A DNA stretch of 64,000 nucleotides from Candidatus Pacearchaeota archaeon (GCA_018221285.1 JAAOYJ010000024.1:13156-77155); one strand, 5' to 3'; shown: positions 42,084 to 47,223, counted from the first letter of the stretch. Program-made: numbers and translations. Notes: generated by a model not told the origin, from the sequence alone.

Positions 42084-44477
42084 ATGTCAAAGAATCAGAT
42101 TGATTTTCATGCGATTGAGAACTGGAATGTTGAAATAGAGAGTGAAATAATTTCCAAATGGATGAAATCGGAGTTATTTAAGTTTAACAAAAATGCTAAA
42201 AAAATTTATTCTATTGATACTCCTCCGCCTTATATCAACGCTCCAATTCATATGGGTCATGCTGTTACCTATGCTTACCAAGATTTTTTTGCGAGATATA
42301 AGAGGATGAAAGGCTTCGAGGTTCTTTTTCCTTTAGGATTGGATAGAAATGGATTGCCAATCGAATTGGGTGCCGAGAAGAAATTTAATGTTTCGCCTTT
42401 TAAAATTGGGAGAGAGAAGTTTATTGAATATTGTGAAAAATTGTTAGACGAAACAACGACTGAATCAACAGACACGTTTGCAAAAATAGGAATTTCTTTT
42501 ACCTCTTATAAATATGGAGATCATATTGGGGCAGTTTATCATACTGATGCTCCAGAGTATAGGATTTTGACACAATCAACATTAATTAATTTATACAAGA
42601 AAGGATTGTTATACGAGGATGTTAGGATTAATAATTGGGATTCTAAGCTTCAGACAACAATTGCAGATTCGGAGATTGATTATGAAAATATCTCGAGTAC
42701 TTTTAACCATATTAGATGGAAAGTTAAAGAGATTGGAGAGGATATTATAATCGCTACGACACGTCCTGAATTAATTTGTACTTGTGGAAAAGTTATTTTC
42801 AATCCAGAAGATGAGAGATATAAACATTTAGAGGGAAAGACTGCGATAATACCTTTGTTTGAAAAAGAAGTTAAAATTATGTCTCACCCATTTGCTGACC
42901 CTGAAAAAGGTTCGGGAATTGTTATGATGTGTGCGGGAGGGGATTTGACAGATATTCAATTTTTTAGGGAACAAAAACTAAAGCCAATTATTGCAATTAG
43001 TAAGGATGGAAAGATGAATGAAAATGCTGGATTCTTAAAAGGTTTGAAAGTTAAGGAAGCTAGGAAAAAAATAAGTGAAAAACTCAAGGAAAAAGGATTC
43101 TTAGTTAAGCAAGAAGAGATTACGCACAGAACCCCTATTTCTGAAAGGTCTAAGGTGGAAGTTGAGTTTATTGAGATGCCAGAGTTTTATCTAAAACAGT
43201 TGAAATTTAAAGATGATGTTCGTAGGGTTTCAAAAAAGATGGATTTCTATCCAGAGTTCTCTAGGAAGATTTTGGATGATTGGATTGATTCAGTTTCTAT
43301 TGACTGGCCAGTTTCTAGAAGAAGATTTTATGCGACAGAGATTCCTTTATGGTATTGTAAAGAAAAAGGTTTAGTTGCTGTACCTCTGCCTGGAAAATAT
43401 TATCGTCCATGGAAAGATAAGGTTCCCAAAGATGCAGAGGTTTTTGAGAATGGAAAATTCGTAGGGAACGTTAGTGATGCTAAATTTAAAGAATTTAAAT
43501 GGGAAGGAGAAGAAAGAGTTTGTGATACTTGGATTGATTCTTCAATTTCTCAATTATACATTTTAAAATATAAGGAAGACCCAGATTTTTTTAAGAAAGC
43601 TTTTCCTGCAACTCTTCGTCCACAAGGAAAGGAAATTGTTAGAACTTGGCTTTATTATAGTATACTTAGAGGATTTTTAGAAACCGGAAAACCTTGTTTT
43701 AAGGACGTTTGGATTCATCAGCATATCTTAGATGGAAAGGGGAAAAAGATGTCAAAGAGTTTAGGAAATGTGATTGATCCTAATGAGATATTAAATGAAT
43801 TTGGGGGAGAAGCTTTGAGACTTTGGGGAGCGTTAGAGGGAGACATTTCAAAACAGGATTTGGCTTGCTCTAAAGAAAGGATTAGGGCGGAAGTTAAGAC
43901 TTTGAATAAAATACTGAATGCTTCAAAGTTTGTAATGTTATTTGAAAAACCTAAGAAGCCGAAGATAATTGTTAAAATGGACAAGTTGTTTATTGATTAT
44001 ATGGAAGATTTGACTGAAAGAATTGATAAGAGTTATTCTAAGTATGATTTTAATCGTCCTGCTCAGGAGTTGAGATGGTTCTTATGGGAGATCTTTGCTT
44101 CACATTATATTGAGATGATTAAGTCGAGAGCTTATAATCAGGATAATAAATTTAGTAAGGAAGAAAGCAGTTCTGCGAAATATACACTTCATTTTCTTCT
44201 TGAGCGGTTTTTGACTTTGATTTATCCGATTGTTCCGCAAATTACTACAACAATTGCAAGTGAGAAAGGAATTGATTTGTTGAAGATAGAATATCCAAAA
44301 GCGAAGAAGGGAAAATCAGATTTGAATTTAATTAAGAAGATAATGGATTTCAATAGCGAGGTTTGGAAAAAGAAGAAGGATAAAGGAGTTTCTCTAAGGA
44401 ATTCTATAGAAGGAATTAAAATTCCTAAGGAGTTAGAAGATTTTGCAGATTTAAAGGAGTGCCATAGTTTAAAATGA
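42084..44477 (+). CDS. valS: valyl-tRNA synthetase
   Basis: IDTPPPYINAPIHMGHAVTYAYQDFFARYKRMKGFEV (HIGH region, archaeal ValRS-like) and KMSKSLGNVIDP. Confidence 0.8.
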   Translation: MSKNQIDFHAIENWNVEIESEIISKWMKSELFKFNKNAKKIYSIDTPPPYINAPIHMGHAVTYAYQDFFARYKRMKGFEVLFPLGLDRNGLPIELGAEKKFNVSPFKIGREKFIEYCEKLLDETTTESTDTFAKIGISFTSYKYGDHIGAVYHTDAPEYRILTQSTLINLYKKGLLYEDVRINNWDSKLQTTIADSEIDYENISSTFNHIRWKVKEIGEDIIIATTRPELICTCGKVIFNPEDERYKHLEGKTAIIPLFEKEVKIMSHPFADPEKGSGIVMMCAGGDLTDIQFFREQKLKPIIAISKDGKMNENAGFLKGLKVKEARKKISEKLKEKGFLVKQEEITHRTPISERSKVEVEFIEMPEFYLKQLKFKDDVRRVSKKMDFYPEFSRKILDDWIDSVSIDWPVSRRRFYATEIPLWYCKEKGLVAVPLPGKYYRPWKDKVPKDAEVFENGKFVGNVSDAKFKEFKWEGEERVCDTWIDSSISQLYILKYKEDPDFFKKAFPATLRPQGKEIVRTWLYYSILRGFLETGKPCFKDVWIHQHILDGKGKKMSKSLGNVIDPNEILNEFGGEALRLWGALEGDISKQDLACSKERIRAEVKTLNKILNASKFVMLFEKPKKPKIIVKMDKLFIDYMEDLTERIDKSYSKYDFNRPAQELRWFLWEIFASHYIEMIKSRAYNQDNKFSKEESSSAKYTLHFLLERFLTLIYPIVPQITTTIASEKGIDLLKIEYPKAKKGKSDLNLIKKIMDFNSEVWKKKKDKGVSLRNSIEGIKIPKELEDFADLKECHSLK

Positions 44478-45562
44478 CAATCCTAACAAAGTACGAACTT
44501 GAAGAAGTCATTGAGGAGATTGAGACATATAAAGGGAGGCAGACAGAGTTGGTTAGTGTTTATGTGCCTGCAGGTTATGATGTGAATGCTGTGCAGAGGC
44601 AGCTTGAGGCAGAGAAGGGGACTGCGAAGAATATTAAGTCGACGTCTACTCGGAAAAATGTTTCAGAGGCGCTTGAGAAGATTGTTCGTTTTTTGAAGAC
44701 ATTGAAGAAGACGCCTGAGAATGGGTTAGCGATTTTTGCAGGAAATGTTGAAAGTTCAGAAGAGGGAGGGGGCATGCGGATATGGGAAATTGAGCCACCT
44801 ATGCCTTTGAAAGTTAGATTGTATAGGTGTGATAAAGAGTTTGTTCTGGAGACTTTGAAAGAGCAGCTTGAGGTTGATGAGATTTTTGCTTTGATTGTAA
44901 TGGATAGGAAGGAAGCTACGTTGGGAATTTTAGAGGGGAAGAGAATTGAGTTAATTAGGAATATGACTTCTGGGATTCCGTCGAAGGTTCGGGCTGGAGG
45001 GCAGTCGAGTCAGAGGTTTCATAGAATTACAGAAGGTTTGACAAGGGATTTTTATAAGAGGATTGCAGAGGAGGTTAAGAAGACTTTTTTTGATAATCCA
45101 AAGTTAAAGGGTATTCTTGTTGGAGGACCGATTCCGACAAAGGATGAATTCCTTGAGGGAGAATATATGGTTACAAAGTTAAGGGAGAAGGTTATTGGAA
45201 GAGTTGATTTGGGGGATAGTTCTGAATCTGGTTTGAAGGAGCTTGTTGAAAAGTCACAGGATATTCTCGCGAGCCAGGAGATTATCAAGGAGAAGCAATT
45301 ATTGGAAATGTTTTTTGAAACATTGGGGGAGAAGCCTGATTTGGCAAAGTATAAAGAGAAAGATATCAAGAAAGCATTGGAATTTGGGGCTGTTGATGTT
45401 TTAATTTTGTCAAAGGATTTTGATAAGAAGTTAGCAAAGGAGTTCAAGATGAAGGCACTTAGCATTGGCTCAACAGTTGAGATTGTTTCAACAGAGACAG
45501 AAGAAGGGAAGCAATTTTTTAATCTTTCTGGAGCAGGAGCTCTGCTCCGATTTAAAATTTAA
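44474..45562 (+). CDS. prf1: peptide chain release factor aRF1
   Basis: NIKS motif (AKNIKSTSTRKN) and GGQ motif (RAGGQSSQRF). ATGA overlap with valS. Confidence 0.9.
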   Translation: MTILTKYELEEVIEEIETYKGRQTELVSVYVPAGYDVNAVQRQLEAEKGTAKNIKSTSTRKNVSEALEKIVRFLKTLKKTPENGLAIFAGNVESSEEGGGMRIWEIEPPMPLKVRLYRCDKEFVLETLKEQLEVDEIFALIVMDRKEATLGILEGKRIELIRNMTSGIPSKVRAGGQSSQRFHRITEGLTRDFYKRIAEEVKKTFFDNPKLKGILVGGPIPTKDEFLEGEYMVTKLREKVIGRVDLGDSSESGLKELVEKSQDILASQEIIKEKQLLEMFFETLGEKPDLAKYKEKDIKKALEFGAVDVLILSKDFDKKLAKEFKMKALSIGSTVEIVSTETEEGKQFFNLSGAGALLRFKI

Positions 45563-45610
45563 ATTAAAAAATTTCATTCGTCAAAATCCACACAGTGATT
45601 TTACCGAGAC

Positions 45611-45661
45611 CAGTTTAATAATTTGTCAGGGGCTGGTGCGTTGTTGAGGTTTGTTGTTTAG
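45611..45661 (+). pseudogene. ghost copy of the aRF1 C-terminal 16 codons
   Basis: In the same frame as prf1: QFNNLSGAGALLRFVV-stop, versus the functional end QFFNLSGAGALLRFKI-stop. Most identically encoded residues use different codons. Confidence 0.55.
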
Positions 45662-45700
45662 GATATAAATTTTTATAAAGTGTTAAGAGATTAGGAACTT

Positions 45701-45973
45701 ATGTGGTATAAACACTTTAAAGCATTTATGGTAATGTTCGCAGGAGGATTAGCATGTGCCTCTGTTCTTTTAGGGGATAGGGCAACAACCCAATTTGAGA
45801 ATTCTTTGGAAGCAAATAGTAGTATTTCTCTTCAGAGCGTTGATAAGTGGGACTTAGTTGAAGATTTTCTTCCTTCTGGAGGAGATGGGGTTTTTGATTA
45901 TAAAGTAACAGTTAGGGAAAGTGGTGGAACTACTTATCAAACAAATGTTGCAGGTTATAATCTTGGTAGATAA
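45701..45973 (+). CDS. hypothetical secreted/anchored protein (90 aa)
   Basis: ORF track; N-terminal hydrophobic segment. Confidence 0.4.
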   Translation: MWYKHFKAFMVMFAGGLACASVLLGDRATTQFENSLEANSSISLQSVDKWDLVEDFLPSGGDGVFDYKVTVRESGGTTYQTNVAGYNLGR

Positions 45974-46218: not shown

Positions 46219-46288
46219 TGGCTCACTTTGTTCGCTTATTTAAGAAGTAGTTAATGAATTAGCTTCGCATAATATGTTGGGCAACTAT
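46219..46288 (+). repeat. mosaic intergenic repeat, copy H
   Basis: TGGCTCACTTTGTTCGCTTA + TTTAAGAAGTAGTTAATGAATTAGCTTCGCATAATATGTTGGGCAACTA. Confidence 0.85.
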
Positions 46289-46352
46289 TGGAAGAATTGA
46301 GAGATAGTATATATTCGATAATCTAAATCTTTTTATATGCTTGAGATATTTT

Positions 46353-46680: not shown

Positions 46681-47223
46681 ATGGTGATTAAAAGTGAAAC
46701 CATTGATGAGATTGATAGTGCGAAAGAGAAAAAGGATTTGAAGATTCTTGAGGCTGTGTTTTTTGTGTCTGGAAGGTTTTTGACAATGCAAGATTTGATT
46801 TCGCTTTCTGATTTGAATCCTGTGATTATTAAAGATTTGATTGAGAAGCTTAAAGAGAAATATGATAAGAGTGATTCTGCCATTGAGATTATTGAAAAAG
46901 GTGGTTCGTGGAAGATGGATGTTCGTGGAGAGTATTCTTATATAATTAATAAGTTGGCGACAGGAAGTGCAGAGTTTTCCAAGGCAGAGCAGGAGACTCT
47001 TGCGATTATTGCGTTTAAGCAGCCGATTAAGCAATCTGTTTTGATTAAGATTCGGGGGAACAAGGCCTATGATCATGTGAAGAAGTTTGCTGATCTTGGG
47101 TTGATTCGGAAGAAGAAAGTTGGAAGGACTAATGAGTTGAATCTTAGTGAAGAGTTTTATGATTACTTTAATATAACTGAGGGAGAGGGGAATCCTTTGA
47201 AGCAGGTTGAGGAGGATGAATGA
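46681..47223 (+). CDS. scpB: segregation and condensation protein B (ScpB)
   Basis: LEAVFFVSGRFLTMQDL and a second wH region ETLAIIAFKQPIKQSVLIKIRG. Confidence 0.8.
   Translation: MVIKSETIDEIDSAKEKKDLKILEAVFFVSGRFLTMQDLISLSDLNPVIIKDLIEKLKEKYDKSDSAIEIIEKGGSWKMDVRGEYSYIINKLATGSAEFSKAEQETLAIIAFKQPIKQSVLIKIRGNKAYDHVKKFADLGLIRKKKVGRTNELNLSEEFYDYFNITEGEGNPLKQVEEDE

What the first reader, a model, noticed from the sequence alone, without database searches (positions are those of the whole stretch)
45512..45661. Diverged in-frame ghost of the aRF1 C-terminus 48 nt downstream of its stop codon
prf1 ends ...QFFNLSGAGALLRFKI-TAA (45512..45562). In the same reading frame, 45611..45661 encodes QFNNLSGAGALLRFVV-TAG. 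Thirteen of 16 residues are identical, yet most of those shared residues use different codons (for example TCT/TCA, GGA/GGG, GCA/GCT, CTG/TTG, CTC/TTG, CGA/AGG). By my hand count, nucleotide identity is only about 60 percent. That pattern is not a recent tandem duplication. Both copies must have evolved as coding sequence. This fits replacement of most of prf1 (perhaps with valS, which overlaps it) by a diverged allele through recombination with an illegitimate 3' junction, leaving the displaced native 3' end.
Basis: seen in the sequence. Interest (0 to 1): 0.6.

Follow-up and report, generated by a model that had tools for sequence, protein, structure and literature searches.

The report
Displaced original end of aRF1 gene
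Just behind the release-factor gene of a tiny DPANN archaeon lies a 54-base leftover of the gene's own original end, pushed aside when a short foreign patch (also present in a related species) was recombined in and took over as the working end; it is a clean scar of gene exchange, not a new kind of system.

Summary
The aRF1 tail (45512-45562) and an in-frame copy 99 nt downstream (45611-45661) share 13/16 residues but only 31/51 bases. No other 16-mer in the genome's six frames exceeds 8/16.

Relatives explain it. Genus-level relatives (L043, L045, L049) end aRF1 with the ghost's codons: 40-41/54 identical to the ghost, about as similar as the gene bodies. The working tail plus 28 non-coding bases (45509-45590) is 78/82 identical to same-genus genome G001, against 82% for the gene body. 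G001's sister L045 (92% body identity) carries the ghost-type tail (33/54 to G001).

So a patch of about 82-99 nt spread horizontally. In this genome it was inserted exactly at the boundary codon, which left the native 18 codons intact downstream. In G001 it replaced about 780 nt. The working tail uses codons that are rare in this genome (CTG CTC CGA).

Best reading (about 0.7): homeologous recombination with one homologous and one illegitimate junction, that is, C-terminal displacement in a housekeeping gene. valS is separately a 36%-identical xenolog.

This is a new member of a known kind, of moderate interest.

The parts
42084..44477 (+). valS, 'type A' allele. Its stop overlaps the aRF1 start (ATGA). 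It is xenologous relative to the valS of the closest relatives.
   Evidence: NCBIfam PRK13208 ValRS equivalog. 66-76% aa identical to valS of L082/L007/L019 but 36% to L043/L046, whose aRF1 is 82-83% identical. It is the only valS in the genome.
44474..45508 (+). aRF1 (prf1) body, native to this lineage.
   Evidence: Pfam eRF1_1/2/3. In the tree it is sister to (G001, L045) inside the clade with L049, L043 and L046. Clade members are the best match in every 60-nt window.
45509..45562 (+). Resident (working) tail, 'class I': K QFFNLSGAGALLRFKI stop. This is the coding part of the foreign patch.
   Evidence: Patch 45509-45590 is 78/82 identical to G001 versus 81.6% for the gene body (Fisher p=8e-4). 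Similarity to L049 drops from 0.87 to 0.62 at about 45503-45509. It contains the rare codons CTG (4.5%), CTC (5.9%) and CGA (6.5%). GC hairpin GGAGCAG/GAGCT/CTGCTCC.
45563..45590 (+). 28 non-coding bases transferred together with the tail (ATTAAAAAATTTCATTCGTCAAAATCCA).
   Evidence: 28/28 identical to G001 directly after its stop codon. Homology ends abruptly at 45590. ATTAAAAAATT pairs with AATTTTTTAAT at the start of the tail.
45591..45607 (+). 17-nt junction filler of unknown origin (CACAGTGATTTTACCGA). It contains the in-frame TGA at 45596-98.
   Evidence: Not shared with G001, which has a different 24-nt filler. No templating copy found in the window or genome.
45608..45661 (+). Ghost: the displaced native tail, 'class II': D QFNNLSGAGALLRFVV stop. 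The frame is intact, with no indels.
   Evidence: 41/54, 40/54 and 40/54 identical to the true gene ends of L043, L045 and L049. 32/54 to the resident tail and 29/54 to G001. Its codons TTG TTG AGG are typical of this genome and of the aRF1 body.
45662..45700 (+). A/T-rich TATA-like element (GATATAAATTTTTATAAAG) and short leader of the next ORF. This is the expected native context downstream of an aRF1 stop.
   Evidence: Read from the sequence. The same 19-mer lies about 20 nt after the aRF1 stop in G392/L061. Promoter function is inferred, not tested.
45701..45973 (+). orf90, an orphan ORF. It is the first gene of the about 1 kb variable segment between aRF1 and scpB.
   Evidence: No Pfam or PHROG hit. 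No homologue in 5.8 billion proteins apart from itself. No DNA match in 60 relatives.
46681..47223 (+). scpB, where the native backbone resumes.
   Evidence: 88% aa and 85.5% nt identical to G001 scpB. Homology resumes about 27 nt upstream of the start codon. The order aRF1-scpB-glycosyltransferase is conserved across the family.

Best explanation
The ghost (45608-45661) is the original 3' end of this organism's own aRF1 gene. A short piece of DNA from another Pacearchaeota lineage was recombined into the gene. That piece carried the last 18 codons of that lineage's aRF1, its stop codon and 28-45 bases of downstream sequence. The left junction lies at the end of the last well-conserved block (STETEEG, about 45503-45509). 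There the donor and recipient sequences stop being similar, so this is the homologous 'anchor'. The right junction is illegitimate: 17 filler bases join directly onto the native codon that is homologous to the first codon of the patch. No native base was lost, so the result is a 99-nt in-frame insertion. The gene now terminates in the foreign tail. The native tail sits 48 nt behind the new stop, untranslated and decaying neutrally. The same patch is present in the non-sister species G001. There the right junction instead removed about 780 nt: the native tail, one small gene and most of a second. Mechanistically this is homology-facilitated illegitimate recombination ('homologous recombination at the border'). 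The outcome is C-terminal displacement. The ghost itself most likely has no present function.

Shown: the two codon classes, the breakpoints, the shared patch and the codon-usage contrast. Inferred: the direction (ghost native, patch foreign), the recombination mechanism and the lack of function.
For: (1) The ghost matches the true gene ends of the closest relatives (L043 41/54, L045 40/54, L049 40/54). That is about as similar as the G000 gene body is to theirs (78-81%). It matches the resident tail at only 32/54.
(2) The body tree is (L043,L046,(L049,(G000,(G001,L045)))) with 94-100% support. Class I tails occur only in G000 and G001. L045, sister of G001, has class II.
(3) G001 versus L045: body 92.2%, tail 33/54 (p=1.4e-9). 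G000 versus G001: body 81.6%, patch 78/82 including 28/28 non-coding bases (p=8e-4).
(4) G000's own profile switches at about 45503-45509. Identity to L049 falls from 0.87 to 0.62. Identity to tails of other genera (L051, L083) rises from 0.60-0.63 to 0.82-0.83.
(5) The resident tail uses CTG CTC CGA (4.5%, 5.9% and 6.5% usage; 1, 1 and 0 occurrences in the aRF1 body). The ghost uses TTG TTG AGG, the commonest choices in the body.
(6) G001 shows an analogous junction: patch, then 24-nt filler, then a relic of the 3' end of another gene that is intact in L045.
(7) The flanks on both sides are native backbone at about 81-85% nt identity to G001.
(8) Literature: homology-facilitated illegitimate recombination gives one homologous and one illegitimate junction with an insertion and a variable deletion (PMC3240628). 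Displaced 3' ends in Rhs and T6SS loci are explained the same way (PMC5361080; PMC2935791).
Against: No donor lineage carrying the class I tail followed by the 28-nt sequence was found in any collection.

No closer relative of G000 exists in the databases (best aRF1 hit 84%). The pre-insertion state is therefore inferred, not observed.

Tails are short, and tail identity between distant genomes is noisy (sd 0.07). The 'other genus' origin of class I is thus weakly supported.

The resident tail carries Ala at the G-x-G position, like the ghost and the clade, whereas G001's copy of the patch has Ile. Three of the four patch differences lie in that one codon, which is unexplained.

The patch has the same left edge in two species, and in G000 it was inserted with zero deletion. 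That is tidier than typical illegitimate recombination.

Read-level support for the contig could not be checked.
Confidence: 0.7

Rival explanations
1. The reverse direction. The class I tail and the 28 nt after it are native to the G000 lineage. The ghost is foreign and arrived as the left end of the about 1 kb variable segment (ghost, orf90, orf98), imported from a class II relative and inserted illegitimately just downstream of aRF1. G001 later received its tail from a G000-like donor.
For: The segment 45591-46653 has no counterpart in G001 or in 60 relatives, and its ORFs are orphans. The region between aRF1 and scpB differs in every relative. The resident tail has the clade-typical Ala at G-A-G.
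Against: G000's resident gene itself shows a breakpoint at about 45503-45509. Its tail is 32/54 identical to L049 against 79% for the body. It uses three consecutive codons that are rare in G000. The ghost would have to be truncated, by chance, at the very codon where G001's patch begins. The ghost is followed by a natural-looking downstream context.
Confidence: 0.1
2. A site-directed or selfish process. One form: a sequence-specific double-strand break at the STETEEG|xQF boundary of class II alleles is repaired from a cleavage-resistant class I allele (intron-less homing that aborted after about 100 nt). Another form: a mobile element that targets the aRF1 3' end, brings its own replacement tail, and was later almost entirely deleted.
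For: Three boundaries coincide within about 18 nt or less: G000's breakpoint, G001's breakpoint, and the homologous start of the ghost. The same patch is in two non-sister species. The patch is recoded at nearly every synonymous site relative to class II. The region downstream of aRF1 is a hotspot of variable cargo, including a DNA methyltransferase in L046. Homing inteins are active in this very gene in relatives.
Against: No nuclease, integrase or recombinase is recognisable nearby. No direct repeat (att core) flanks the patch. No element body is present. The patch sequence is unique in the genome and absent from viral collections, apart from a coincidental 22-mer. The common left edge is also expected simply because donor-recipient homology collapses there.
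Confidence: 0.1
3. Assembly artefact: a chimeric join or collapsed mixture of two co-occurring strains with different aRF1 ends.
For: The genome is a metagenome-assembled draft with 5.8% estimated contamination. Conserved genes are typical chimera points. Reads could not be inspected.
Against: The two tails share no long k-mer (31/51 identity) that could bridge a graph. The 17 bases before the ghost are not aRF1 coding sequence, so this is not a simple strain switch. The contig alternates native backbone, foreign valS, native aRF1, patch and native-type tail, which a single mis-join cannot give. An independent assembly (G001) has the same patch with its own illegitimate junction.
Confidence: 0.05
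4. The ghost is functional, or it arose locally. Options: an old 99-nt tandem duplication, a read-through extension, or an archaeal intron whose removal would restore the ghost as the real C-terminus.
For: The ghost is exactly in frame (99 nt) and has kept an open 18-codon frame with a stop at the homologous position.
Against: Two different stop codons (TAA, TGA) separate it from the gene. The patch ends do not pair into a bulge-helix-bulge-like structure. There is no Rfam hit. G001 has the patch but no ghost, so the class I tail must be the working one. A local duplication cannot explain why each copy matches a different set of relatives.
Confidence: 0.02

Closest known systems
Homology-facilitated illegitimate recombination / 'homologous recombination at the border' (described for Streptococcus pneumoniae, Acinetobacter baylyi and Pseudomonas stutzeri; summarised in PMC3240628)
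   Same: One junction lies inside homologous sequence (the conserved aRF1 body). The other junction lies in non-homologous DNA. Foreign DNA is trapped, with zero (G000) or about 780 nt (G001) of recipient DNA deleted.
   Different: Here it is inferred from genomes of uncultivated DPANN archaea, not observed experimentally. The insert is very short (about 99 nt). The donor is only about 80% identical at the anchor. No clear 3-10 bp microhomology at the illegitimate joint could be shown. The DNA uptake route in these archaea is unknown.
C-terminal displacement in Rhs, CDI and T6SS effector loci (Jackson et al. 2009, PMC2935791; Kirchberger et al. 2017, PMC5361080)
   Same: A laterally acquired 3' end takes over at a fixed conserved/variable boundary. 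The old 3' end is pushed downstream, where it persists as a dissociated 'tip'.
   Different: The gene is an essential single-copy translation factor, not a polymorphic toxin. The new and old tails encode almost the same peptide. There is no immunity gene or other cargo, only 45 nt. There is a single ghost, not an array.
Integrative elements that insert into the end of a host gene and supply a replacement end (for example tRNA-gene integrating archaeal viruses and plasmids, or SXT in prfC; from general knowledge, not tested here)
   Same: The target gene stays intact because incoming DNA carries a diverged copy of its end. The displaced native end remains as a partial duplicate.
   Different: There is no integrase, no att direct repeat and no element body between the new end and the ghost.
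Short-patch or mosaic gene conversion between diverged alleles (for example discontinuous donor tracts after natural transformation, PMC13344027 abstract)
   Same: A very short donor tract lies inside an otherwise native gene. A second foreign tract (valS) lies nearby in the same locus.
   Different: Ordinary conversion replaces sequence and leaves no duplicate. Here the native segment survives next to its replacement.

Membership tests
Homology-facilitated illegitimate recombination scar | One junction lies within sequence homologous between donor and recipient (the anchor) | tested here: met
   G000's breakpoint is at about 45503-45509, at the end of the conserved STETEEG block. G001's breakpoint is between 45491 and 45509 by comparison with its sister L045.
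Homology-facilitated illegitimate recombination scar | The other junction lies in non-homologous DNA | tested here: met
   G000/G001 identity is 28/28 up to 45590 and then random. The fillers differ (17 nt versus 24 nt). G001 resumes inside another gene's 3' end.
Homology-facilitated illegitimate recombination scar | Foreign DNA inserted, usually with deletion of recipient DNA | tested here: met
   G000: +99 nt, no deletion. G001: about +106 nt, and about 780 nt of L045-like sequence missing.
Homology-facilitated illegitimate recombination scar | 3-10 bp microhomology at the illegitimate joint | tested here: inconclusive
   A possible TCCA/TCNACA overlap at 45587-45592 is not distinguishable from chance. 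The native pre-event sequence is unknown.
Homology-facilitated illegitimate recombination scar | Identifiable donor lineage | tested here: not met
   No genome with the class I tail followed by the 28-nt sequence, other than G000 and G001, was found in metagenome, genome or viral collections. The nearest tails, L083 (44-47/54) and G187 (about 83%), have different downstream DNA.
C-terminal displacement (Rhs/CDI/T6SS type) | The new 3' end takes over at a fixed boundary and the old 3' end is retained downstream | tested here: met
   The patch starts at codon K (45509). The ghost starts at the homologous codon (45608).
C-terminal displacement (Rhs/CDI/T6SS type) | Variable toxic tip with a cognate immunity gene as cargo; arrays of orphan tips | tested here: not met
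   Only 45 non-coding bases lie between the new stop and the ghost. There is a single ghost. The tails are near-identical peptides of a housekeeping protein.
Site-specific integrative element at a gene's 3' end | Integrase or recombinase gene and an element body between the duplicated ends | tested here: not met
   48 nt separate the two ends. Neighbouring ORFs have no Pfam or PHROG hits.
Site-specific integrative element at a gene's 3' end | Identical att core repeated at both junctions | tested here: not met
   No direct repeat flanks 45509-45607. The junction sequences GAAGAAGGG|AAG and TTTTACCGA|GAC differ.
Recent tandem duplication | Copies near-identical at the nucleotide level, diverging without regard to codon position | tested here: not met
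   31/51 nt but 13/16 aa. Each copy matches a different set of relatives.
Archaeal bulge-helix-bulge intron or programmed read-through extension | Splice sites juxtaposed in a helix-bulge structure, or a single leaky stop before the extension | tested here: not met
   The fold of 45470-45650 does not pair the patch ends. There are two stops of different kinds.
Assembly artefact | Reads fail to span the junction, or show two haplotypes | not testable with these tools
The contig is not on record in other assemblies.

The most novel reading that the evidence does not exclude
The tail-plus-hairpin module of about 82 nt (45509-45590) may be a discrete unit that spreads among Pacearchaeota species on its own merits. 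One possibility is that a site-specific break at the STETEEG|xQF boundary of ordinary alleles is repaired from this synonymously recoded, cleavage-resistant allele. That would be a minimal, nuclease-in-trans form of homing at an essential gene. Another possibility is that its nested stem (an A/U outer helix plus a GC hairpin built from rare codons, kept in two alternative versions in G000 and G001) is a selected 3'-end or terminator element.
Probability: 0.12. Interest if true: 0.65.

Novelty: new member of a known kind. Interest (0 to 1): 0.4.

Why it matters
DPANN archaea such as Pacearchaeota are uncultivated, so how they exchange DNA is known almost only from inference. This locus gives a base-resolved example. 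An essential single-copy translation gene has taken up a patch of about 100 nt from another lineage. The displaced original end is still present as an internal control, and the same patch sits in a second species. A deeply diverged valS allele (36% identity) has also replaced the neighbouring gene in situ. Together these show that conserved housekeeping genes act as homology anchors for short-patch, one-sided recombination between species in these reduced genomes. Practically, such ghosts can mislead gene callers and marker-based contamination estimates. They also offer a way to date recent transfers. The finding does not reveal a new molecular system.

Tried and rejected
Exact-protein look-ups of the G000 aRF1 and orf90 found no other assembly.

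(2) Search for the donor lineage. The class I tail pattern gave 0 hits in JGI metagenomes and 0 in viral contigs. A BLAST of the patch against 400 genomes of the order found only tails at 84% identity or less, with unrelated downstream DNA. Proteins with an identical tail peptide (P0089, P0117) have other codons or other downstream DNA.

(3) The 22-mer from the 28-nt segment hit a viral contig and the 5' end of a Patescibacteria serS, reading NFIRQNP in both. G000's own serS lies on another contig and starts MIDIKLIRENPE, and no relative has serS next to aRF1. I treated this as coincidence.

(4) A second metagenome scan for close aRF1 relatives returned only hits of 75% identity or less, with no ghosts.

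(5) A ghost of the native tail in G001: the alignment score is at shuffle level.

(6) A templated origin for the filler bases: no 11-mer source was found.

(7) Intron or RNA element: no bulge-helix-bulge pairing and no Rfam or tRNA hit.

(8) Mobile-element signatures: no att repeats and no integrase, nuclease or phage families in neighbouring ORFs.

(9) Pelota or a second aRF1 as the source of the ghost: the genome has no other eRF1_3 hit.

(10) Mosaicism inside the aRF1 body: none was detected.

(11) A family-wide test for recurrent tail swapping: tail identity is too noisy at these divergences to be informative.

Full report
THE OBSERVATION.

The window comes from contig C9 of an 863-kb, 43-contig metagenome-assembled genome (34% G+C, 82% complete, 5.8% contamination). 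Public names given to homologous proteins place it among Pacearchaeota/Nanoarchaeota, that is, DPANN archaea.

aRF1 (44474-45562; Pfam eRF1_1/2/3) ends QFFNLSGAGALLRFKI-TAA. Ninety-nine bases downstream and in frame, 45611-45661 reads QFNNLSGAGALLRFVV-TAG. The two share 13/16 residues but only 31/51 bases. Ten of the 13 shared residues use different codons. TAA (45560) and TGA (45596) lie between them.

In 1.72 million six-frame 16-mers of the genome, the best unrelated match to the tail is 8/16. A genome-wide eRF1_3 scan finds only the gene and this ghost.

WHAT RELATIVES SHOW.

I collected aRF1 loci from 60 related genomes, from the closest database proteins, from 400 genomes of the order and from metagenomes. 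None of the other loci, about 75 in all, has a ghost.

A maximum-likelihood tree of the gene body without the tail gives (L043,L046,(L049,(G000,(G001,L045)))). Support is 100/98, 100/99, 94/90 and 100/99.

The last 18 codons come in two codon 'classes'.
- Class II (GAG/GAC CAG TTT AAT AAT TTR TCA GGR GCW GGK GCK TTG TTG AGR TTT ...) is the true gene end in L043, L045 and L049, and it is the ghost.
- Class I (AAG CAA TTT TTT AAT CTT TCT GGA nnn GGA GCT CTR CTC CGA TTT AAA ATT TAA) is the working end in G000 and in the same-genus genome G001 only.

The ghost is 41/54, 40/54 and 40/54 identical to the ends of L043, L045 and L049. That is about the divergence of the G000 body from those genes (78-81%). 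It is 32/54 identical to the resident tail.

THE PATCH.

G000 and G001 are 81.6% identical over the aRF1 body. They are 78/82 identical over 45509-45590, including 28/28 non-coding bases after the stop. Similarity then drops to random (Fisher p=8e-4).

G001 and L045 are 92.2% identical over the body (0.88-0.97 in every window) but only 33/54 in the tail (p=1.4e-9).

G000's own profile switches at about 45503-45509. Just upstream it is 0.87 identical to L049 and 0.53-0.63 to L051, L082 and L083. From 45503 on it is 0.62 to L049 and 0.82-0.83 to the tails of L051 and L083, which belong to other genera.

The resident tail contains CTG CTC CGA, codons used at 4.5%, 5.9% and 6.5% in this genome and 1, 1 and 0 times in the aRF1 body. 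The ghost's TTG TTG AGG are the commonest choices in the body.

The class I tail plus 28 nt is therefore a recently and horizontally spread patch. Its divergence between the two species is 1-5%, against 18% for the gene.

In G000 the patch, together with 17 bases of unknown origin (45591-45607), sits exactly in front of the native codon homologous to its own first codon. This is a 99-nt insertion with no loss.

In G001 the patch is followed by a different 24-nt filler. After that, sequence resumes that is 97% identical to L045 positions 2185-2223, the last codons of a small winged-helix-like gene. So about 780 nt present in L045 are missing, and there is no tail ghost.

MECHANISM.

The pattern has four elements: one junction at the end of the last conserved block, one junction without homology, trapped foreign DNA, and zero or several hundred bases deleted. 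This is what homology-facilitated illegitimate recombination produces (PMC3240628).

The same logic has been used to explain displaced 3' ends ('tips') in Rhs and T6SS loci (PMC2935791; PMC5361080).

The common left edge in the two species is expected under this model, because class I and class II differ at about 40% of positions from that codon on, so heteroduplex formation cannot extend further. The shared right limit (+28) needs no coincidence if one species received the patch from a relative of the other.

I rate this reading at about 0.7.

The ghost is preceded by two stops and followed by an A/T-rich TATA-like element and the orphan orf90. It has an intact frame and only slightly more divergence than the gene body, which fits a recent displacement and no function.

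ALTERNATIVES.

(a) The ghost is the import and class I is native (0.1). This fits the orphan, unalignable 1-kb segment and the clade-typical Ala in the resident tail. It is contradicted by the breakpoint inside G000's resident gene, by the rare codons and by the coincidence of truncation points.

(b) A site-directed or selfish process (0.1). This is suggested by three boundaries coinciding within about 18 nt or less and by the complete synonymous recoding. But no nuclease or integrase, att repeat or element body is present.

(c) Assembly artefact (0.05). The tails share no bridging k-mer. The filler is not aRF1 sequence. The contig alternates native and foreign tracts on a backbone that is 81-85% identical to G001 on both sides. 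G001 independently carries the patch.

(d) Local duplication, read-through or intron (0.02). These are rejected.

The aRF1 body is native: clade members are the best match in every window.

valS, however, is remarkable. G000's copy is a ValRS by NCBIfam but only 36% identical to the valS of L043/L046. It is 66-76% identical to valS of more distant family members (L082, L007, L019), where it also abuts aRF1 directly. It is the only valS in the genome. The 84-aa ORF that separates valS and aRF1 in G001 and L043 is absent.

So the gene upstream of aRF1 was replaced in situ by a xenolog, and aRF1 has foreign DNA on both sides. G001 carries the tail patch while the start of its contig holds a short stretch resembling the end of the other valS type. 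The two replacements are therefore separable.

UNEXPLAINED DETAILS.

Three of the four G000/G001 differences in the patch fall in one codon (GCA versus ATC), and the fourth is CTG versus CTA. Together they switch between two alternative GC hairpins, GGAGCAG/CTGCTCC and GAATCGGAG/CTCCGATTT. These hairpins are nested in an 11-bp A/U helix formed by the start of the tail and the bases just after the stop. The folds have z-scores of -2.8 and -3.4. This could mean the structure is under selection, for example as a 3'-end element. It is the basis of the 'novel case'.

VERDICT.

This is a real and nicely resolved recombination scar: C-terminal displacement of an essential gene's tail by a short xenologous patch in a DPANN archaeon. 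It is a known kind of event in a new setting and of moderate interest.

Noticed in passing
window 42084-44477 (valS), compared with L043:1269-3650, L046:1542-3914, L082:244-2628: Two deeply diverged ValRS alleles (36% aa identity, both NCBIfam PRK13208) occupy the same position upstream of aRF1 in this family. G000 carries the type found in more distant genera (66-76% identical), not the type of its closest relatives. It is G000's only valS. This looks like in-situ xenologous replacement.
   Followed up: partly
L088 219-2600 (-) = G034:C5; L089 217-1770 (-) = G020:C12; split hits also in G030, G018, G041, G045, G011: Inteins are inserted immediately after the catalytic GGQ motif of aRF1 in several relatives. 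G034 has a full-size one of about 430 aa with LAGLIDADG-like motifs (RAGGQ|CLSPETL...IVHN|SSQRF). G020 has a mini-intein of about 155 aa (GGQ|CLAPNSW...LVHN|SSQRF). G000's gene has none.
   Followed up: partly
window 46242-46289: A repeat of about 45 nt in the variable segment between aRF1 and scpB has 84-96% identical copies elsewhere in G000 (C9:29946, C9:36049, C42, C30, C26, C22) and several in G001. It belongs to an intergenic repeat family of this genus.
   Followed up: no
L004/L078 1536-1574 (G001) compared with L045 2185-2223: G001 carries its own gene relic. The last roughly 14 codons (PKLKKAIERGRE) of a small winged-helix-like gene that is intact in L045 sit directly after the patch and filler. 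This marks a deletion of about 780 nt.
   Followed up: yes
window 45563-45590, +2 frame; L077 1691-1712; L076 4144-4165: The 28 nt after the aRF1 stop read LKNFIRQNP in another frame. An exact 22-mer also occurs at the 5' end of a Patescibacteria serS (MLDINFIRQNPE...) and in a viral contig. G000's serS is elsewhere and differs, so this is probably coincidence.
   Followed up: partly
window 45530-45548 compared with L004 1451-1475: The G000 and G001 copies of the patch differ almost only in one codon (GCA/ATC) plus CTG/CTA. These changes convert one GC hairpin into a different, shifted one. Both hairpins are nested in an 11-bp AAUUUUUUAAU/AUUAAAAAAUU helix.
   Followed up: partly
L043 3704-3958, L004 100-354; L082 2667-2966: A small ORF of unknown function (84 aa in L043 and G001, 57% identical to each other) is inserted between valS and aRF1. 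L082 has a 99-aa ORF at the same position whose relation to it was not tested. No such ORF is present in G000, L046 or L007. The space downstream of aRF1 holds different cargo in every relative: a DUF2334 gene, DUF6309, a histidine phosphatase, an N6/N4 methyltransferase.
   Followed up: partly
It has only weak UDP-glucose dehydrogenase-family Pfam hits and is absent from L043/L046. It may belong to the same imported block as valS.
   Followed up: partly
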